Source of the DNA: a virus
Lineage: Duplodnaviria > Caudoviricetes
Strand: one strand, 5' to 3'
DNA length: 24,914 bases
IMG/VR virus record: IMGVR_UViG_3300025571_000022
Location: 1-24,914 of that record
Shown: piece by piece, positions 528 to 21,009 of the stretch
How positions within the stretch are numbered: position 1 is the stretch's first letter
How the letters are laid out: each line of letters starts with the position of its first letter
Program-made: the position numbers and the translations under genes
The notes under the pieces: generated by a model
What the model saw: the letters and a program-made list of their open reading frames with translations, nothing else
Databases searched by the model: none
Told to the model about the DNA's origin: nothing

Positions 528-860
528 TCACAAAAACGGTCTGCCTTCTGGCTTAATTCGGTATTCGCCAGGTGGCAAACGATCATTGTCATATCGTCCC
601 ACCTCAATATATCCTTTTTTTCCGAGGTCGCGGATATAGCGCCCATTATATATACAGGCAAAGATGATCCAAGGGATGATTATTCCGACGAAATATGTGA
701 TAAGGGCGACGAGACCATTGGTTATGAACATCACAAAGAACCATTTCAGGTCTCCGCGAAATAACGGGACGAAGGCTCCGAAGAAGAGCGTGGTCCATGA
801 GAATCCCTTTTTAACTACGATCTCATGCCCGCTCTGATAATGCCGAAGAACAACCTTCAT
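528..860 (-). CDS. DUF2628-like small membrane protein (moron)
   Basis: GFSWTTLFFGAFVPLFRGD motif plus hydrophobic helices; ATG at 860 after AAAGGTGA; lower GC; opposite to the tail operon. Confidence 0.7.
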   Translation of the reverse strand: MKVVLRHYQSGHEIVVKKGFSWTTLFFGAFVPLFRGDLKWFFVMFITNGLVALITYFVGIIIPWIIFACIYNGRYIRDLGKKGYIEVGRYDNDRLPPGEYRIKPEGRPFL

Positions 861-927
861 GGCTATCACCTTTGAAACGATTTTCCCACATTTTACACAA
901 TAATTTGACGGTTGAATAGTTTTTTCA

Positions 928-2242: not shown

Positions 2243-2644
2243 GTGGAAAACTGGGTCAAACCTGTTGTAGCTGTGAGCGGCGCGGCCGCCTCTTATCTTT
2301 TCGGGGGGTGGTCGTCGTTGCTTTCGATTCTGCTGACGTTTGTTGTGTTGGATTATGTGACCGGGTTCGCAGCCGCCGCAAAAGAAGGAAGGCTGAACAG
2401 CGAAGTCGGCCTCTGGGGCATCGCGCGGAAGGTGGCGATCTTCGCGGTTGTGGCCGTGGCGCACCTGGTCGACTCGGCACTTGGCGACGCGCATCTCTTC
2501 CGGGATGCGGCGGTGTTTTTCTATCTGGCCAACGAGCTGCTGAGCATCACAGAAAATCTCGGCCGTGTTGGTGCGCCGATCCCGCCGGCTGTTCAAAGGG
2601 CGGTCGAGATCCTGCGCGGGAAGTCGGAGGGGGACCGGCCATGA
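2243..2644 (+). CDS. Phage holin (toxin secretion/phage lysis holin family)
   Basis: LFGGW...DYVTG...LNSEVG..GIARK...FFYLANELLSITENLGRVG signature; TM helices; upstream of lysin. Confidence 0.92.
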   Translation: MENWVKPVVAVSGAAASYLFGGWSSLLSILLTFVVLDYVTGFAAAAKEGRLNSEVGLWGIARKVAIFAVVAVAHLVDSALGDAHLFRDAAVFFYLANELLSITENLGRVGAPIPPAVQRAVEILRGKSEGDRP

Positions 2645-3306
2645 GCGCGGCATCTTTCATCGCCCAAATCGCCCCGATCGCCGTCCAACTGCGCATTGAA
2701 GGATCGCCGATCTTCCCGTCGGTCCGGATCGCGCAGGCGGGGCTGGAGACCGGCTGGAAAATCCCGGCCTGGAACAACCTCGGCGGCTACAAGGTCGGCA
2801 GCGGCAAGCTCACACCGTACTGGCGCGGCAAGGTCGTCAATAAAGGCACATGGGAAGTGTACGACGGCGAGCGCGTGGATGTGACGGCCGCATTCCGGGC
2901 GTATGACAGCGTGGAGGATTTCTTCCGGGATCAAGACCTGCTCTTCCAACTCCCGCGCTATGAGCGCGTGCGGACGGCGAAGACGCCCGAGGAGCAGGCC
3001 GAAGCGCTCCGGCTCTGTGGCTATGCCACGGATCCGGAATACGGTCTCAAGCTGTGCAACATCATCAGCATGTACCGGCTGGAAAAATACGACGAGGAGG
3101 CATGGAAGGTGCTCCAGGAGATCAAGGATCTGAAAAGGAAAGTCGAAGAGCTCGAGAAGCAGCAGGAACGCATCCCGGCGCCGGCGTGGTTCGTCCAGCA
3201 GTTCGGCAGTGCCGATCTCGGCGGCCTGATCAGCGATCCGCATTTCAGCCTCGAGGGCTGGCGGACGCTGGCCGTGGCGCTGCGGGCGCAGAAGGCCCAG
3301 AAATGA
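2641..3306 (+). CDS. Endolysin, GH73 glucosaminidase
   Basis: AQAGLETGW, NNLGGYK, FRAYDS, GYATDPEY motifs; ATG 2641 overlaps the holin stop. Confidence 0.9.
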   Translation: MSAASFIAQIAPIAVQLRIEGSPIFPSVRIAQAGLETGWKIPAWNNLGGYKVGSGKLTPYWRGKVVNKGTWEVYDGERVDVTAAFRAYDSVEDFFRDQDLLFQLPRYERVRTAKTPEEQAEALRLCGYATDPEYGLKLCNIISMYRLEKYDEEAWKVLQEIKDLKRKVEELEKQQERIPAPAWFVQQFGSADLGGLISDPHFSLEGWRTLAVALRAQKAQK

Positions 3307-3309
3307 GCG

Positions 3310-3345
3310 ATCCCCGCTCAGCTATGCGCTGGGCGGGGATTATTT
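3310..3345. terminator. Terminator hairpin between lysin and the convergent accessory operon
   Basis: ATCCCCGCTCAGC-TATGC-GCTGGGCGGGGAT. Confidence 0.7.
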
Positions 3346-3347
3346 GC

Positions 3348-3545
3348 TTACAGACCTTTTTGCTGTTTATACCGTCGAACCTCATCCAGATCCCACATCG
3401 GCCCCTTCGGCGTGATGGTGACGGGGCGTGGAAAGTTTGAGCGCGAGCGCGGGGACTGCATCCGTTTCCATCGGTCGTAGATCGCCCCGCGCGTGACGCC
3501 CAGAATCTCCGCCACCGCCTGGTATCCGCCAAGGGGCCGATTCAC
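3348..3545 (-). CDS. Small HTH DNA-binding protein (AlpA/excisionase-like fold)
   Basis: GYQAVAEILGVTRGAIYDRW...FPRP...PMWDLDEV. Confidence 0.75.
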   Translation of the reverse strand: MNRPLGGYQAVAEILGVTRGAIYDRWKRMQSPRSRSNFPRPVTITPKGPMWDLDEVRRYKQQKGL

Positions 3546-4081
3546 TCCCCCGAGGGTTCCACCCGGATGCTCAGGCGGTCCGGGAACGCGCTTGCCACCT
3601 CAATACCTCTGTCGCGGAGCCGCTGCTCGAGCTCGATCGCATTCGCCGGCGTCTTGAGCCGGATTTGCCGTGCCGGAAACGTCCGTTCAGCCTGTTTGCC
3701 ATAAATGCTGCCCTTCGTGTCAGCGAATACCGGCGAGATGTCGTCCTCGGTCAGCCCATACTCCGCCACCAGCTCGTCCCATTCCTGCGCCGTGATCGGC
3801 CGGCCCAGCTCCACCGGGTACCCTCCGCGCGGAATCAGACCGCAGATCCAATATTGCCACGCGCCGGCCGGGCGGTACCAGTCCTCACCAATTTTTTTCC
3901 TGTACGGCTGGAGGTCTTTCTCCTGCAGGTTGACGATCTCTTGATTCATCCGCGTGTAGGTGTTGATTTTGAACCATTCACCGCCGATCCTGATGATGAC
4001 GTGGTTGGGGAGTGCCGGATCATACACCATTTCGTCGACGACCAGCTTGCCGTTGACATATTCGAGAATTGGCACGATCAA
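3542..4081 (-). CDS. Hypothetical protein, 179 aa
   Basis: TTG start after GAAAGGA; stop overlaps next start. Confidence 0.75.
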   Translation of the reverse strand: MIVPILEYVNGKLVVDEMVYDPALPNHVIIRIGGEWFKINTYTRMNQEIVNLQEKDLQPYRKKIGEDWYRPAGAWQYWICGLIPRGGYPVELGRPITAQEWDELVAEYGLTEDDISPVFADTKGSIYGKQAERTFPARQIRLKTPANAIELEQRLRDRGIEVASAFPDRLSIRVEPSGE

Positions 4082-4110
4082 TCATCCTTTCTATGTGGAT
4101 TCCTGCCTTC

Positions 4111-4175
4111 GCAGGTTGAGCGGAGGCCGCTTGATGCGGCCGCGCCGGGATTCTCGGCGCTCTCCCTAGCCCTGC
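4111..4175 (-). ncRNA. Twister-sister-like self-cleaving ribozyme (three-way junction)
   Basis: Minus strand: GCAGG GCUAG GGA GA GCGCCG-AGAAUCC-CGGCGC GGCCGC-AUCAA-GCGGCC UCC GCUCA A CCUGC; all stems pair; GCNAG and GCUCA internal-loop strands; predicted cut C4118/A4117. Confidence 0.75.
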
Positions 4176-4180
4176 TGGGT

Positions 4181-4438
4181 TCATCTGATTTCCCATGCGC
4201 CATCCACAAACTCACAGTGCGGATATCCATCTTCAAACTTTTTGACCATTTCCCGCGTATTCTCAATGGAATACGTTTTGTTCATCTCTTCCATGACCTC
4301 GACGGCCTTTTCGAGGTCGGGAAGGTGGAGAGATTCCAAGGCCGGTCGCATGGTCTTGATGAAGGGTGAGCGGTACTTAGTCTTTCGAATGAATTCATCC
4401 GCCAACTCATTGAATTTTTGGATCAGCTTTTCTTTCAT
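4181..4438 (-). CDS. Hypothetical protein, about 85 aa, flanked by two ribozymes
   Basis: GGAGG 9 nt upstream of ATG 4438; lower GC than neighbours. Confidence 0.75.
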   Translation of the reverse strand: MKEKLIQKFNELADEFIRKTKYRSPFIKTMRPALESLHLPDLEKAVEVMEEMNKTYSIENTREMVKKFEDGYPHCEFVDGAWEIR

Positions 4439-4466
4439 TCGAATCATCCTCCCATGGTTTTTGTTG

Positions 4467-4531
4467 CGGCTTCCCGCGACCGCCCTGCGGGGCGGTTTCG
4501 GCCCGGAGCCGCCGGGCCATCGTCAGGCGGG
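4467..4531 (-). ncRNA. Type I hammerhead ribozyme with loop II/3'-tail pseudoknot
   Basis: Minus strand: CCCGC CUGACGA U GGCCCGG-CGGCU-CCGGGCC GAAA CCGCCC-CGCA-GGGCGG UC^ GCGGG A AGCCG; intact core, GUC triplet (cut 4478/4477); loop CGGCU complementary to downstream AGCCG. Confidence 0.92.
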
Positions 4532-4912
4532 GTTGTTAATCTCAACTCCGCGCCGCCGAAGCTCCATGATCAGCTCGTCCGTGCTGTACTTCGCTAGCGG
4601 CAATTCTTGCTCCTTCTGGCGACCTTCCCAGTGCTCGAAGGCCTGAACCTTGTCGACCTCCAGCAGGTTGCCGTCCTGCTGAACGATATACAGGTCGTTG
4701 CTGGTGTGCCCGCCCCGGTGATCCCGTTGGCCGCTGGCGACGATGTCACCGGGCTCGCACTTGATGTACACCACGCCACCGCGATCGTCACCGAGGTATG
4801 CGCCGGCGGAGAAATCATACACCGGCTTCGCGCCCTCGAACTTCACCAGCGCGCCCCACGGTTTGCCGTACCGCCGCGAGTTGTATGCCGGATACTTGAT
4901 TTGGACTCTCAT
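4523..4912 (-). CDS. Hypothetical protein, about 129 aa; first gene of ribozyme operon
   Basis: AGGAGA RBS 8 nt before ATG 4912; its TGA lies in the hammerhead CUGA core. Confidence 0.75.
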   Translation of the reverse strand: MRVQIKYPAYNSRRYGKPWGALVKFEGAKPVYDFSAGAYLGDDRGGVVYIKCEPGDIVASGQRDHRGGHTSNDLYIVQQDGNLLEVDKVQAFEHWEGRQKEQELPLAKYSTDELIMELRRRGVEINNPA

Positions 4913-4946: not shown

Positions 4947-4978
4947 ATTATACAGATAACCCTATACGGTGTATAGGG
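4947..4978 (-). promoter_or_regulatory. SigA-type promoter with palindromic operator over the -35
   Basis: -10 TATAAT (4952-4947), 17 bp spacer, -35 TATACA (4975-4970); inverted repeat CCCTATAC-GGT-GTATAGGG at 4960-4978. Confidence 0.65.
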
Positions 4979-12959: not shown

Positions 12960-13700
12960 ATGAGCCAAAGTGCAACGAGCGTCGTAACGGGCGAAGTGCG
13001 TCTGAGCTACGTCAATCTGTTCCAACCGCGCGCAGCGCAACAGGGTGGAGAGCCGAAGTACAGCGTGACGATCCTGCTGCCGAAGAGTGACACGGCGACA
13101 TACAACCGGATTCAAGCGGCAATCCAGGCGGCGTACGAAAAGGGCGTGACCGAGAAGTGGAACGGTGCGCGGCCGCCGCTCAAAACGACGATCCACGACG
13201 GCGACAGCGTGCGGCCGAGCGGCGAGCCGTTTGGGCCGGAGTGCCGCGGGCATTGGGTGTTTACGGCCAGCAGCAAACAGCAGCCGGAGATCGTGGACGC
13301 GCAGCTCAACCCAATCATTGACCAGTCGAAGGTCTACAGCGGCGTTTATGGCCGGGTGCATGTCAATTTCTTCGCTTACTCGCAGTCCGGTAACCGCGGC
13401 ATCGCTGCCGGCCTCGGCCCGGTGCAGATCCTGCGCGACGGCGAGCCGCTCGGCGGCCGCGTATCGGCAGCCGATGCGTTCGGTGCCGCTCCGGCGTCGG
13501 CAGCTCCGCCGGCATACGGCCAGCCGGGGGTGAATATGCCGCCCGCGGCCCAGCCGCAAGGGTACGGTCAGCCGGCTCCCGGTTATGGGCAGTCTGCCGC
13601 GCCGCAGCCTCCGGCATACGGCCAGCCGGCGCCGCAACCGCCGCAGCAAATTGATCCTATCACCGGGCAGCCGCTGGGCGGCGGCATCTACGGGATCTGA
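12960..13700 (+). CDS. DUF2815 single-stranded DNA-binding protein
   Basis: VVTGEVRLSY, PKYSVTILLPKSD, VYSGVY, DGEPLGG; P/Q/YGQ-repeat tail. Confidence 0.9.
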   Translation: MSQSATSVVTGEVRLSYVNLFQPRAAQQGGEPKYSVTILLPKSDTATYNRIQAAIQAAYEKGVTEKWNGARPPLKTTIHDGDSVRPSGEPFGPECRGHWVFTASSKQQPEIVDAQLNPIIDQSKVYSGVYGRVHVNFFAYSQSGNRGIAAGLGPVQILRDGEPLGGRVSAADAFGAAPASAAPPAYGQPGVNMPPAAQPQGYGQPAPGYGQSAAPQPPAYGQPAPQPPQQIDPITGQPLGGGIYGI

Positions 13701-14224
13701 TGAGTGTGGAGATCTGGAAAGACATTCCGGGATATGAGGGGCAATATCAAGCGAGCACGCTCGGCCGAATTCGAAGTGTCGATCGCCAAATAACCCAAAT
13801 GGGCCGTTTCGGAAAGCCTTTTACCAGAACGATGAAGGGGCGCGTTCTGCGCCCCGGGCGCTACTGCAAAAGCGGCCATGTGTCAGTCACACTGGGAAAA
13901 GGAGCGTTTGGAAAACCTGTACACCAGCTCGTCATGCTTACCTTTGTTGGGCCGCCGCCAATGGGTATGGAAGTAAGGCACTTGAACGGAGACCCGACAG
14001 ATAACCGGCTCTGCAATCTTGCTTATGGCACGAGATCTGAAAACATCCTCGACGTGTACCGCATCGGAAAACGCTGGAGGAAGCTCTCGAAAGCAGAAGC
14101 CCTCGAGATTAAGAGGCGTCTTGCTGCTGGTGAATCTGGCGCAGCACTTTCTAGGGAATTTGGCGTGTCCGAAACTTCGATTTCTAGGTTGAAGGTTGGT
14201 GTTACATTCCAGTGGCTAGGTTGA
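13700..14224 (+). CDS. NUMOD4-HNH homing endonuclease
   Basis: EIWKDIPGYEGQYQASTLGRIRS; VHQLV...VRHLNGDPTDNRLCNL; C-terminal HTH. Confidence 0.92.
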   Translation: MSVEIWKDIPGYEGQYQASTLGRIRSVDRQITQMGRFGKPFTRTMKGRVLRPGRYCKSGHVSVTLGKGAFGKPVHQLVMLTFVGPPPMGMEVRHLNGDPTDNRLCNLAYGTRSENILDVYRIGKRWRKLSKAEALEIKRRLAAGESGAALSREFGVSETSISRLKVGVTFQWLG

Positions 14225-16185: not shown

Positions 16186-16203
16186 AGATGAAGGGGATTG
16201 AGG

Positions 16204-17508
16204 ATGAAACAACTCGATCTATTCGCAGGTATCGGAGGGATCAGCCTGGCCGCAGAATGGGCCGGGATTGAAACAATAGCATTTTGCGAAAAAGAGTCAT
16301 TCTGCCAGAAAGTTCTCCGTGCCAGGTTTCCCGGCAGGCCGATTTATGACGACGTTTTTGATCTGACGGCGGAGGTGTTGCGAAAAGATGGAATCGACAA
16401 AATTGATATCGTCTCAGGGGGGTTCCCCTGCCAACCATTTAGCCACGCTGGCAAACGAACCGGAACAGCTGACGATCGATATCTTTGGCCTGAAATGTTC
16501 CGAATCATCGGAGAAATCAAACCCTCTTGGGTTGTTGCTGAAAATGTTGAGGGGCTCATCAGTATGGCGCAGTCAAATTGGAAGCCTGTCATGGAAGACG
16601 AAGCAGTTGTATGCGAAGAGGCGGAGATGGTGCTCGAAACAATCCGGAAAGACCTTGAAAAAGCAGGATACCAATCCGTCCCAATTGTTATACCGGCTGC
16701 AGCTGTCGGTGCCTCGCATCGAAGATACCGGGTCTTCATTGTGGCCCACAGTTACGGCGACAGCGGGGGACGGTCGAAGCGAACAAGACCCCGAGGTTTG
16801 GAAGGCCAGGTACGACCGGACGCTGGCGGAGAAGGGGATACGGAATGGATTGCCGATCAATGTGGCAGTCAAGATGTGGCCGACCCCGCGGGCAAACGAT
16901 GCGGAGAAGCGCGGGGACGTATCGGACGACCCCAGGAATGGGCTGCCGGGCGCAGTGAAATTGTGGCCGACACCACAAGCACACGACGCGAAGCCAGGTT
17001 CAGCGGACAGAGTGGGGAGATTCGGGTCGAAGCACGGCGGACGAAACCTGAACGATTATGTGATGCTTTGGCCCACACCAACGACGAACGACGCGAAGAA
17101 TGCCACACTCCCGCCAGCAGCGAAAGATTGGGATATCATCCCTGGGGCGTTGATGCGGGAAGGGTACACATCGCAGGAGGGGCAACTGAATCCAGAATGG
17201 GTGGAGGTGCTGATGAACTTTCCGCTTGGTTGGACGGACGTGGAATGAATCCGCTGGATGCGCTGAAAGGCTTCATCGACGCCTACCCGCAGCCTGCGCT
17301 CATGGGTCAGCCGCAGCACGAGTGGGAGCCCCCGAGGGTGGCAACGGGCGTGAAAAACCGGGCGGCGCGGCTGAAAGCGCTCGGGAACGCGGTTGATCCG
17401 TTGCAAGTATTCCCTATCTTTTATGGTATTCGCACCATCCATGATTATCTCTCGCAGGGGATGCTGAGGTGCCGCTTAAACGACATCGTCGCAAAGGATG
17501 ACCAATAA
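16204..17508 (+). CDS. C5-cytosine DNA methyltransferase, catalytic polypeptide (no recognisable motif IX)
   Basis: Motif I DLFAGIGG, IV GGFPCQPFS, VI ENV, VIII HRRYRVF, X RLKALGNAV. Confidence 0.9.
   Translation: MKQLDLFAGIGGISLAAEWAGIETIAFCEKESFCQKVLRARFPGRPIYDDVFDLTAEVLRKDGIDKIDIVSGGFPCQPFSHAGKRTGTADDRYLWPEMFRIIGEIKPSWVVAENVEGLISMAQSNWKPVMEDEAVVCEEAEMVLETIRKDLEKAGYQSVPIVIPAAAVGASHRRYRVFIVAHSYGDSGGRSKRTRPRGLEGQVRPDAGGEGDTEWIADQCGSQDVADPAGKRCGEARGRIGRPQEWAAGRSEIVADTTSTRREARFSGQSGEIRVEARRTKPERLCDALAHTNDERREECHTPASSERLGYHPWGVDAGRVHIAGGATESRMGGGADELSAWLDGRGMNPLDALKGFIDAYPQPALMGQPQHEWEPPRVATGVKNRAARLKALGNAVDPLQVFPIFYGIRTIHDYLSQGMLRCRLNDIVAKDDQ
16388..17248 (+). CDS. Overlapping-frame second methyltransferase polypeptide with four WPT(P/V) modules and motif IX-like end
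   Basis: GGAGGTG (16371-77) before ATG; 286 codons open; LWPTV, MWPTP, LWPTP, LWPTP; GQLNPEWVEVLMNFPLGWT. Confidence 0.75.
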   Translation: MESTKLISSQGGSPANHLATLANEPEQLTIDIFGLKCSESSEKSNPLGLLLKMLRGSSVWRSQIGSLSWKTKQLYAKRRRWCSKQSGKTLKKQDTNPSQLLYRLQLSVPRIEDTGSSLWPTVTATAGDGRSEQDPEVWKARYDRTLAEKGIRNGLPINVAVKMWPTPRANDAEKRGDVSDDPRNGLPGAVKLWPTPQAHDAKPGSADRVGRFGSKHGGRNLNDYVMLWPTPTTNDAKNATLPPAAKDWDIIPGALMREGYTSQEGQLNPEWVEVLMNFPLGWTDVE

Positions 17509-20496: not shown

Positions 20497-21009
20497 ATGA
20501 TTGCAGTAACTTGCGCCTGGTGCGGAACGGGATTTCACATCAAGCCGAGCAAGGTGAAGGAGTCGAATTTCTGTTCCCGTGAATGCTATTTCAGGCACAA
20601 GGCCAGAAACCAGATCCGAACCATCTGTGAACAGTGCGGCAAACCGGTAGTAAAGCCGCCGTCGAAAGCGACGGAGCGAAATTTCTGCAGCCGCCAGTGC
20701 TTGATGAAAACCATCAACGTCGAATTGAACCCAACGCGCATGACCCCTGAAACCAGGCGGAAGCTGCGCGAAGCGAGACTGGGTTCAGGTGAAGGGAAGT
20801 CGTACGAGAAGACTTACGGCCGTCACACGCATCGAATTGTTGCCGAGCAGATGCTGGGCAGACCGCTTAAGCCTGGCGAAGTGGTACACCACATCAACGG
20901 CAACAAACGGGATAACCGTCCAGTGAATTTGCGCGTTTTCGCATCTCAAAAAGAGCATGCCGCATGGCATGTCGCCGAGGAAAGATTTTTCCGAGGTCAG
21001 AGGGGGTGA
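20497..21009 (+). CDS. Free-standing HNH homing endonuclease with two N-terminal Cys4 repeats
   Basis: CxxCG...FCSRxC twice; HRIVAE..LGRPL..GEVVHHINGNKRDNRPVNL. Confidence 0.88.
   Translation: MIAVTCAWCGTGFHIKPSKVKESNFCSRECYFRHKARNQIRTICEQCGKPVVKPPSKATERNFCSRQCLMKTINVELNPTRMTPETRRKLREARLGSGEGKSYEKTYGRHTHRIVAEQMLGRPLKPGEVVHHINGNKRDNRPVNLRVFASQKEHAAWHVAEERFFRGQRG

What the first reader, a model, noticed from the sequence alone, without database searches (positions are those of the whole stretch)
4100..4531. Two different self-cleaving ribozymes bracket one small gene in an accessory operon
Seen: on the minus (sense) strand of the four-gene operon 4912->3348, the first gene junction holds a complete hammerhead (cut 4478/4477) and the second a twister-sister-like fold (predicted cut 4118/4117). 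Known: both classes leave a 5'-OH and a 2',3'-cyclic phosphate, and self-cleaving ribozymes cluster in such small-gene regions, with largely unknown purpose. Inference: the mRNA self-processes into three pieces. The middle 360-nt piece carries the RBS and whole 85-aa ORF and has RtcB-compatible ends, so it could be a stand-alone or circular mRNA. The outer pieces could also be rejoined, skipping that gene.
Basis: partly seen in the sequence, partly recalled or inferred. Interest (0 to 1): 0.88.

Follow-up and report, generated by a model that had tools for sequence, protein, structure and literature searches.

The report
Phage ribozymes making hairpin-capped mRNAs
A bacterial virus carries two different self-cutting RNA sequences between its small accessory genes, and each predicted cut would leave the next gene's message starting with a conserved hairpin that likely shields it from decay, a testable purpose for such phage ribozymes.

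Summary
Both elements are real, on the minus strand of a temperate phage: a type I hammerhead with pseudoknot (cut 4478/4477) and a three-way twister-sister (cut 4118/4117). Rfam misses both here; relatives show compensatory changes. Ribozymes flanking single prophage genes is published (Perreault 2011), where circles and splicing were sought and not found. The unit is not a bracket. Bracketed genes are unrelated (36 families in 40 cases), and a sister phage has the hammerhead alone. Each ribozyme abuts the upstream stop codon, and its downstream product is predicted to start with a hairpin at the cut, then a spacer and ribosome site. This hairpin occurs in 34 of 49 twister-sisters and 110 of 143 long-stem hammerheads (shuffles 21% and 38-41%), and in twister-sisters it changes with the P1 stem. 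It is not enriched in a short-stem hammerhead subclass, partly from phages resembling those of Bacteroidota, where RNase J was not found. Best reading (0.6): natural RiboJ-like insulators that make RNase-J-resistant short mRNAs. Circles or gene skipping are unlikely (0.06). Cleavage was not tested. This scan noted a similar insulator idea before on other DNA.

The parts
4947..4978 (-). Sigma-70-type promoter-like site (TATACA-17-TATAAT) overlapped by an 8-bp inverted repeat (4978-4960), possibly an operator for ORF4
   Evidence: 1 found, shuffles 1.0, so the pattern alone is weak; position 35 nt before the ORF1 start; the sister phage has a promoter-like site at the same place; operator role is inference
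4523..4912 (-). ORF1, 129 aa, unknown function; its UGA stop is the UGA of the hammerhead CUGA core
   Evidence: 66% relative in a Paenibacillaceae genome; confident model, no fold match at E<=0.001
4467..4531 (-). Type I hammerhead ribozyme with an extra U after A9 and a loop II / 3' tail pseudoknot; predicted cut 4478/4477
   Evidence: (covariation of stems I-III and pseudoknot, 59 sequences)
4466..4477 (-). Predicted 4-bp hairpin at the very 5' end of the hammerhead's downstream product (0-nt overhang), built from the stem I 3' strand and the pseudoknot tail
   Evidence: in-register covariation is modest
4439..4465 (-). A-rich spacer and Shine-Dalgarno site of ORF2
   Evidence: sequence
4181..4438 (-). 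ORF2, 85 aa, near-orphan, unknown function
   Evidence: (one full-length candidate relative, P0005, 41%)
4111..4175 (-). Three-way-junction twister-sister ribozyme (L1 GCUAG/GCUCAA; T2 pair G4162-C4149; SL4 A4154.U4150); predicted cut 4118/4117
   Evidence: (T2 29 C-G / 18 G-C of 48; SL4 pair 21 A-U / 21 U-A); PMC5660989
4102..4115 (-). Predicted 5-bp hairpin two nucleotides from the 5' end of the twister-sister's downstream product; its 3' arm repeats the P1 5' strand and competes with P1
4076..4101 (-). Spacer and Shine-Dalgarno site of ORF3
   Evidence: sequence
3542..4075 (-). ORF3, 177 aa, unknown function
   Evidence: 3 relatives at 46-58%, none named
3348..3545 (-). ORF4, 65 aa, AlpA/excisionase-like helix-turn-helix; relatives lie in the same operon in four sister phages
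   Evidence: (below curated cut-offs)
3309..3341 (.). Terminator-like hairpin between the operon and the convergent endolysin gene
   Evidence: z -4.9; 97.5% identical over 40 nt in sister phage G336

Best explanation
The two sequences are a hammerhead and a twister-sister ribozyme that are predicted to cut the operon mRNA just behind each upstream stop codon, and each downstream piece would then refold into a hairpin at its new 5' end that likely blocks the host 5' exonuclease RNase J and gives the next gene a fixed, context-free leader. The working unit is ribozyme + product hairpin + A-rich spacer + Shine-Dalgarno + gene, a natural counterpart of the synthetic RiboJ insulator, not a pair of ribozymes around a gene. 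The bulk of each ribozyme stays on the upstream piece as stable 3' stem-loops ending in a cyclic phosphate (predicted). The product hairpin also takes away the strand that would re-form the closing stem, so it would drive product release and oppose re-ligation. The likely benefit is that small accessory genes, which are swapped in and out of this slot among sister phages, are expressed as stable one- or two-gene messages whatever their neighbours. Shown: sequence, covariation, position, hairpin enrichment, gene swapping, host-enzyme distribution. Inferred: cleavage in cells, hairpin formation, protection from RNase J, benefit.
For: Stop codon of a >=50-codon frame ends within -11..+5 of the core start in 236 of 291 ribozymes, against 8.7% at random positions. 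It is the UGA of CUGA in 53 of 242 hammerheads and the UAG of GCUAG in 18 of 58 twister-sisters. Shine-Dalgarno plus start within 60 nt of the cut: 40 of 49 twister-sisters, 97 of 143 long-stem hammerheads. 5' hairpin (<= -3 kcal/mol, starting within 3 nt of the cut): 34 of 49 twister-sisters vs 21% in tail shuffles (max 29%); 110 of 143 long-stem hammerheads vs 38-41% (max 45%), also when stem I and pseudoknot letters are held fixed. Starting the same test 10-30 nt further on gives 6-18% and 19-25%. After stricter de-duplication: 19 of 29 and 70 of 96. In twister-sisters the hairpin's 3' arm is the exact complement of the ribozyme's own P1 strand in 24 of 49 (permutation mean 11.1, max 19 of 2000), across four P1 types (16/27, 2/5, 4/4, 2/2). 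RNase J over cut-off in 28 of 31 genomes carrying such hammerheads and 41 of 41 genomes of the likely host family, but in 0 of 61 Bacteroidota genomes. The short-stem hammerhead subclass shows no hairpin enrichment (5 of 51 vs 8%), and 3 of 4 of its contigs tested have Bacteroidota phages among their nearest named relatives. Literature: RNase J1 degrades the 5'-OH product of the glmS ribozyme, and 5' hairpins or ribosome sites stabilise B. subtilis mRNA (PMC3997798 section 7); RiboJ raises mRNA twofold and protein 2-10-fold in E. coli (PMC6206723 passages). Sister phage G336 (integrase 95% identical) has ORF1-hammerhead-different gene-terminator and no twister-sister hit.
Against: No cleavage, RNA ends or half-lives were measured. 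The hairpins are small: 4-5 bp, -5.7 and -7.7 kcal/mol in the constrained measure; whether that stops RNase J1 is untested. For hammerheads the hairpin partly reuses the pseudoknot tail, and its in-register covariation is modest: the two outer pairs hold in 35 and 33 of 59, the two inner pairs were fixed by my row selection; position 2/11 Fisher p 0.01. Sequences are related and were gathered with patterns that fixed part of P1 or stem I, so counts are not independent. The six GCAAG-type (four-way) twister-sisters show no enrichment (3 of 6 vs 54%). The hairpin-less subclass differs in structure and is AT-rich, so lineage could explain it; its host calls rest on 24-40% protein identity, and one of four (G348) was not Bacteroidota-like. 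In the uncut twister-sister the hairpin outcompetes P1 in secondary-structure terms (P1 0.99 falls to 0.05; below 0.5 in 20 of 49 relatives), so cleavage there may be partial. The predicted Shine-Dalgarno is not fully open (mean pairing 0.37-0.44).
Confidence: 0.6

Rival explanations
1. Cleavage serves mainly to uncouple and grade expression, possibly to destabilise pieces as with glmS; the hairpin is only a product-release and anti-religation device and gives no real nuclease protection.
For: 5'-OH ends are RNase J1 entry sites (PMC3997798). The hairpins are short. The hairpin uses exactly the strand that closes the ribozyme. Differential stability of processed pieces has been proposed before (PMC6765202 passages).
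Against: Release alone does not need the hairpin to sit within 0-2 nt of the cut (offset 0 in 79 of 110 hammerheads, offset 2 in 27 of 34 twister-sisters). It does not explain several different hairpin designs at that place, nor the lack of enrichment in a subclass partly tied to RNase-J-less hosts.
Confidence: 0.15
2. The ribozymes are gated switches: the competing hairpin, and ribosomes terminating on stop codons inside or next to the core, set how much transcript is cut, so processing reports on translation or transcription speed.
For: The hairpin displaces P1 once 4102 is transcribed. ORF1's stop lies inside the hammerhead core, and ORF2's stop ends 5 nt before P1. Stops inside cores are common.
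Against: The folding model has no Mg2+ or tertiary contacts (T1, T2, pseudoknot), which favour the active fold. Hammerhead stem I stays formed (0.80-0.99). Stops in cores may reflect compact phage coding.
Confidence: 0.12
3. The main role is at DNA level: near-identical ribozyme cassettes act as homology arms that let accessory genes recombine in and out.
For: A twister-sister plus leader 88-97% identical to the window's, over 65-98 nt, flanks different genes in other phages. 118 bracketed proteins fall into 93 families.
Against: Recombination needs identity, not catalytic cores and compensatory changes. Two unrelated classes fill the same slot. It is more likely a side effect that complements the best explanation.
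Confidence: 0.07
4. One reading: the excised ORF2 piece is circularised, or the outer pieces are rejoined, by host RtcB, and this is the selected function.
For: End chemistry fits RtcB (PMC8782182 passages). RtcB is in 32 of 61 genomes of the likely host family and 17 of 31 hammerhead-bearing genomes. The excised piece's 3' end can pair with the ORF2 ribosome-site region (pair probability up to 0.41). Own-end duplexes are slightly stronger than cross pairs in the mixed pairs (-13.5 vs -11.6, n=6; -14.2 vs -12.5, n=4).
Against: No ribozyme-catalysed route (0 and 1 bp). The 5'-OH is buried in a hairpin. No own-end advantage in 56 hammerhead-hammerhead or 13 sister-sister pairs. Piece lengths are random modulo 3 (13/15/12), and ORF2 keeps its stop in a circle. 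A single ribozyme suffices in sister phage G336. No RtcB in 5 sister phage records. Perreault 2011 detected no spliced or circular products.
Confidence: 0.06

Closest known systems
Clustered hammerheads flanking genes in prophages (Perreault et al. 2011, PMC3088659; passages read)
   Same: Ribozymes near an integrase flank single genes or short blocks whose identity varies; processing into short mRNAs was proposed and cleavage shown for three clusters; the pseudoknot is the same type.
   Different: Here two unrelated classes fill the slot. The passages read say nothing of a hairpin at the product 5' end, stop-codon abutment or RNase J (0 occurrences of 'RNase' in the text).
Twister-sister ribozyme, Rfam RF02681; three-way form PDB 5T5A as described in Zheng et al. 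2017 (PMC5660989; parts 1-4 of 7 read)
   Same: P1-L1-P2-P4(SL4)-P5 layout; G5, C6, A8, G9 and GCUCA with C^A cut; single Watson-Crick T2 pair between the junction and SL4.
   Different: A7 is U (tolerated in that paper's A7U mutant); U64 is A; T2 is G-C instead of C-G; the SL4 U30.A34 pair is A.U; C32 is A. This copy scores below Rfam's reach.
RiboJ synthetic insulator (sTRSV ribozyme plus 23-nt hairpin; PMC6206723, passages)
   Same: Self-cleavage leaves a hairpin-containing, uniform 5' end in front of the ribosome site.
   Different: Natural; placed between genes, not after a promoter; the hairpin is built from the ribozyme's own closing strand and starts 0-2 nt from the cut; two ribozyme classes.
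RNase III processing of the T7 early transcript (PMC4858673, passage)
   Same: A phage polycistronic message is cut into mono- and dicistronic mRNAs.
   Different: Protein-free cutting, 5'-OH and cyclic-phosphate ends, temperate phage accessory slot.
glmS ribozyme of Bacillota (PMC3997798, section 7 and passages)
   Same: Self-cleavage upstream of a gene leaves a 5'-OH in a host with RNase J.
   Different: The glmS product is degraded by RNase J1; here the product is predicted to start with a hairpin, the opposite outcome; no metabolite cofactor.

Membership tests
Hammerhead ribozyme, type I | Core C3-U4-G5-A6-N7-G8-A9, G12-A13-A14, A15.1-U16.1 pair, cut after H17 | tested here: met
   CUGACGA, GAA, A-U, GUC. 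One extra U after A9, shared by many relatives; tolerance of an extra base there is recalled (only the title of De la Pena and Flores 2001 was seen)
Hammerhead ribozyme, type I | Three stems with covariation, stem I open | tested here: met
   94.6% of cells paired, 13 of 20 pairs with two-sided changes, slid controls 28-42%
Hammerhead ribozyme, type I | Stem I - stem II tertiary contact (pseudoknot) | tested here: met
   5-bp complement 4511-4507/4471-4467; pair 27-76 has 29 two-sided changes; >=4 bp in 103 of 143 long-stem relatives
Hammerhead ribozyme, type I | Rfam clan CL00010 gathering score | tested here: not met
   only a partial type II hit, 16.5 of 37 bits. The hammerhead loci of the same pattern among the 20 sources were missed too, so this looks like a model gap
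Hammerhead ribozyme, type I | Mg2+-dependent self-cleavage at the site | not testable with these tools
   needs in vitro transcription
Twister-sister ribozyme (RF02681) | L1 internal loop with G5, C6, A8, G9 and G59-C60-U61-C62-A63 | tested here: met
   against the numbering in PMC5660989; A7U tolerated there; position 64 is A, as in relatives that Rfam accepts
Twister-sister ribozyme (RF02681) | P4 with SL4 closed by G-C, with G31 and A33 and a U30.A34-type pair | tested here: met
   G-C closure invariant in 48 of 48; pair swapped to A.U in 21 of 48, U.A in 21
Twister-sister ribozyme (RF02681) | T2 long-range Watson-Crick pair of the three-way form | tested here: met
   G4162-C4149; 29 C-G and 18 G-C of 48; described as G27-C14 in PMC5660989
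Twister-sister ribozyme (RF02681) | Rfam gathering score 34 bits | tested here: not met
   no hit for this copy; relatives from the same pattern search pass at 37.6-49.4 bits
Twister-sister ribozyme (RF02681) | Divalent-metal-dependent cleavage at C^A | not testable with these tools
   needs an assay; the SL4 variant AGAAUCC has not been tested in the papers read
Ribozyme-flanked circular RNA / exon skipping (Tornado-like; name recalled) | Ends held together by a ligation stem, or able to re-form a ribozyme | tested here: not met
Ribozyme-flanked circular RNA / exon skipping (Tornado-like; name recalled) | RtcB-type ligase available | tested here: inconclusive
   0 of 5 sister phage records; 32 of 61 genomes of the likely host family; the actual host is unknown
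RiboJ-type insulator (works-like comparison) | Hairpin between cut and ribosome site, conserved beyond chance | tested here: met
RiboJ-type insulator (works-like comparison) | Raises or standardises downstream expression | not testable with these tools
   needs reporters

The most novel reading that the evidence does not exclude
Phages of RNase-J-bearing bacteria have converged, in two unrelated ribozyme classes, on a self-installing mRNA cap. The ribozyme cuts behind a stop codon, and its own closing strand snaps into a 5'-terminal hairpin that makes the cut irreversible and blocks RNase J. Accessory genes thus travel as plug-in cassettes with a built-in insulator, and the hairpin is dropped where hosts lack the enzyme. 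This would be the general purpose of the orphan self-cleaving ribozymes of phage small-gene regions.
Probability: 0.4. Interest if true: 0.82.

Novelty: new variant of a known kind. Interest (0 to 1): 0.62.

Why it matters
Reviews call the role of bacterial and phage self-cleaving ribozymes largely unknown (PMC6765202, PMC6155905, passages). In Bacillota a 5'-OH cut should invite RNase J1, as with glmS, which makes mRNA processing look self-defeating. A conserved hairpin at the cut, found in two unrelated classes and tracking the host enzyme, would resolve that and can be tested with a few point mutants. It also offers compact natural insulators for Gram-positive engineering, and shows that Rfam misses a twister-sister branch and a type I hammerhead branch common in phages.

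Tried and rejected
Rfam on the window and on the 621-nt region: no useful hit. Protein-seeded locus searches with ORF2 and ORF1 in viral contigs: nothing. blastn of the operon against annotated phages: only hammerhead matches. RNA-run contigs (4 runs): depth 2-5, short pieces on ORF1, ORF3 and ORF4, none over 4065-4575, no joints; uninformative for expression, cleavage or circles. No read-level comparison of DNA runs is available. The twister-sister model found nothing in 36 Paenibacillaceae genomes (no positive control, so this shows little); the hammerhead model hit 8 of 36. Function of ORF1, ORF2 and ORF3: Pfam, PHROGs, phmmer, atlas and fold searches gave nothing usable. Only 8 of 92 bracketed proteins have a Pfam hit (3 ArdC-type, DUF932, amidoligase, GNAT, 2 DUFs), so an anti-defence label for this operon is not shown. 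Rolling-circle translation rejected. Target-site duplication as the source of the repeated 5-mer around the twister-sister was rejected by reasoning: the upstream copy is the P1 strand and must pair inside the ribozyme. A Terminase_6N search to place hairpin-less phages mostly failed (1 of 10). blastn of a hairpin-less locus against named phages: no match. Rows dropped: 8 of 41 loci judged chance from their folds; 88 of 124 genome loci failed the structure filter, then 4 same-contig repeats and L308 were left out, giving 31; alignment A1 holds 48 of 49 rows (window copy in place of L423, L011 omitted); A2 holds 59 of 66 pre-selected rows; the Pfam scan had 92 of 118 proteins.

Full report
Setting. 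The window is a 24.9-kb virus record of a temperate phage: holin 2243-2644 and glucosaminidase endolysin 2644-3306 on +, serine integrase 6786-5377 and cI-type repressor on -. Between them, on -, lies a four-gene accessory operon with a promoter-like site at 4975-4947 and a terminator hairpin at 3341-3309. The host is probably in or near Paenibacillaceae (inference): the DNA polymerase has relatives at up to 66% identity in 35 of 301 genomes of that family, and ORF1 has a 66% relative in a Paenibacillaceae genome. Other families were not searched.

The hammerhead. Stem I 4531-4527/4477-4473, core CUGACGA, one extra U, 7-bp stems II and III and a GUC triplet give a cut at 4478/4477. Loop II is complementary to 4471-4467, the pseudoknot type of Perreault 2011. 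Pattern scans gave 128 and 124 viral loci (about 370 and 410 stretches estimated) and 124 genome loci. On 59 aligned copies, 94.6% of cells pair and 13 of 20 pairs, pseudoknot included, show two-sided changes, against 28-42% paired in slid controls. Rfam gives only a partial sub-threshold hit.

The twister-sister. A pattern from the window found 41 viral loci, 33 of which fold alike; a looser pattern found 61. Against the structure paper (PMC5660989, parts 1-4 of 7) the L1 residues match. A7 is U, which that paper found tolerated. The single long-range pair of the three-way form is present but swapped: 29 C-G and 18 G-C of 48; the SL4 pair flips between U.A and A.U, 21 and 21. Rfam RF02681 accepts relatives from the same search (37.6-49.4 bits) but not this copy. 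So it is a three-way twister-sister of a branch that Rfam partly misses, not only a minimal TS-like loop (PMC11620745, passages). Descriptors for both classes gave 0 hits in 200 random windows, and my own models find only these two sites in the window (by construction).

The bracket is known and is not the unit. Perreault 2011 (passages) describes hammerheads flanking single genes or short blocks in prophages with changing gene identity, shows cleavage of three clusters, and reports no spliced or circular products. A review notes that different classes share these places (PMC6765202, passages). In my loci there are 79 adjacent pairs, the window included: 56 hammerhead-hammerhead, 13 sister-sister, 10 mixed; 40 enclose one gene, 30 several, 9 none called. 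My descriptors see only two classes and missed some copies that Rfam found (for example a third twister-sister in L020), so multi-gene counts are upper bounds. The 40 single genes fall into 36 families. Sister phages fill the same slot differently. The complete phage G336 (integrase 95% identical, 90% DNA identity over 1.9 kb) has an ORF1 relative, the hammerhead, a different 80-aa gene and the same terminator, with no twister-sister hit and no ORF2, ORF3 or ORF4 match. G337 and G339 have two and three ribozymes with other genes.

What is conserved instead. Upstream, a stop codon ends within -11..+5 of the core start in 236 of 291 ribozymes (random 8.7%), often inside the core itself, as ORF1's UGA is here. 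Downstream, the product starts with a predicted hairpin, then an A-rich spacer, a Shine-Dalgarno site and a start codon about 37-40 nt from the cut (median). In the window these are a 4-bp hairpin at offset 0 (4477-4466) and a 5-bp hairpin at offset 2 (4115-4102), both with a GAAG loop. Enrichment: 34 of 49 GCUAG-type twister-sisters against 21% in shuffles, and 110 of 143 long-stem hammerheads against 38-41%. It is specific to the cut position and survives stricter de-duplication. In twister-sisters the hairpin's 3' arm follows P1 through four sequence types (24 of 49 exact; permutation maximum 19). For hammerheads the in-register covariation is modest, and several hairpin designs are used. 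Against: no enrichment in six four-way twister-sisters, and all sets are related and pattern-biased.

Link to RNase J. RNase J1 attacks the 5'-OH left by the glmS ribozyme, and 5' hairpins stabilise B. subtilis mRNA (PMC3997798, section 7 and passages). The 31 named genomes with such hammerheads are, by record title, 20 Bacillota, 6 cyanobacteria and 5 others or unnamed; 28 have RNase J and 17 have RtcB. In the likely host family RNase J is in 41 of 41 and RtcB in 32 of 61; in Bacteroidota RNase J was not found in 61 searched. A short-stem hammerhead subclass lacks hairpin enrichment (5 of 51). Five contigs of that subclass and one hairpin-less twister-sister contig use almost no Shine-Dalgarno sites, and three of four tested resemble Bacteroidota phages at 24-40% identity, while the fourth does not. 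This fits the protection idea but is confounded by lineage and base composition.

Circles and skipping. The end chemistry suits RtcB (PMC8782182, passages). But neither ribozyme can close its stem on the other's product (0 and 1 bp), the middle piece's 5'-OH is paired, and own ends are no more complementary than foreign ends in same-class pairs, with a small edge in the ten mixed pairs. Lengths are random modulo 3, and RtcB is absent from five sister records. Low-level ligation by a host RtcB is not excluded. The RNA contigs laid were too shallow to say anything.

A caveat that may be biology. In the uncut twister-sister, the product hairpin outcompetes P1 as soon as it is transcribed (0.99 to 0.05; 20 of 49 relatives below 0.5). 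The model has no Mg2+ or tertiary contacts. Either the active fold is trapped during transcription, or cutting is partial or gated. The hairpin would sit before the ORF3 ribosome site in both cases.

Novelty and verdict. The ribozymes are new members of known classes, and the arrangement is published. I found no paper on the product hairpin, stop-codon abutment or the RNase J link in searches (listings only). The library lacks most subscription papers; I did not read Weinberg 2015, Roth 2014 or Liu 2017, and no supplements, which could bear on this. Best explanation 0.6; interest 0.62; new variant of a known kind.

Noticed in passing
window 4170-4166 and relatives in alignment A1: The A7-to-U form of L1 (GCUAG) creates a UAG that is the upstream gene's stop codon in 18 of 58 twister-sisters, which may explain this variant; in the window the stop lies 10 nt earlier.
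   Followed up: partly
window 4978-4960: 8-bp inverted repeat over the -35 box; ORF4-type HTH genes sit in this operon in four sister phages, and G336 lacks both the HTH and this repeat, hinting at autoregulation. No matching repeat was found before the operon in G339 or G340.
   Followed up: partly
L017:4744-4833 and L099:1385-1474: A DUF3800-VII RNA (67 bits) lies on the opposite strand about 1 kb from the ribozyme cluster.
   Followed up: no
L485, L493, L494 (Paenibacillaceae genomes): Hammerheads whose product hairpin is followed by a second GC-rich hairpin and a U-rich run, resembling a terminator or attenuator directly after the cut.
   Followed up: no
L006, L018, L027, L007 (twister-sister products): The product hairpin is lengthened by an inserted inner stem while the outer pairing with the P1 strand is kept.
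   Followed up: partly
L091-L093, L104, L115: Gut-type phage contigs with four or more hammerheads within 5 kb.
   Followed up: partly
L226, L193, L466, L066; also L015, L035, L039, L006, L032: Ribozyme-punctuated arrays hold ArdC-type and DUF932 genes and genes whose N-termini look like ArdA and RadC (recalled resemblance, not scanned), suggesting anti-restriction cargo in some arrays.
   Followed up: partly
window 16198-17508 and 16388-17248: A DNA methyltransferase-like ORF overlaps a 286-aa ORF in another frame on the same strand; not examined.
   Followed up: no
window 13700-14224 and 20497-21009: Two HNH-endonuclease-like ORFs (by eye) lie next to the DNA polymerase and helicase genes.
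   Followed up: no
window 528-869: 113-aa membrane protein on the - strand amid tail genes (phrog_4915), a possible second moron.
   Followed up: no
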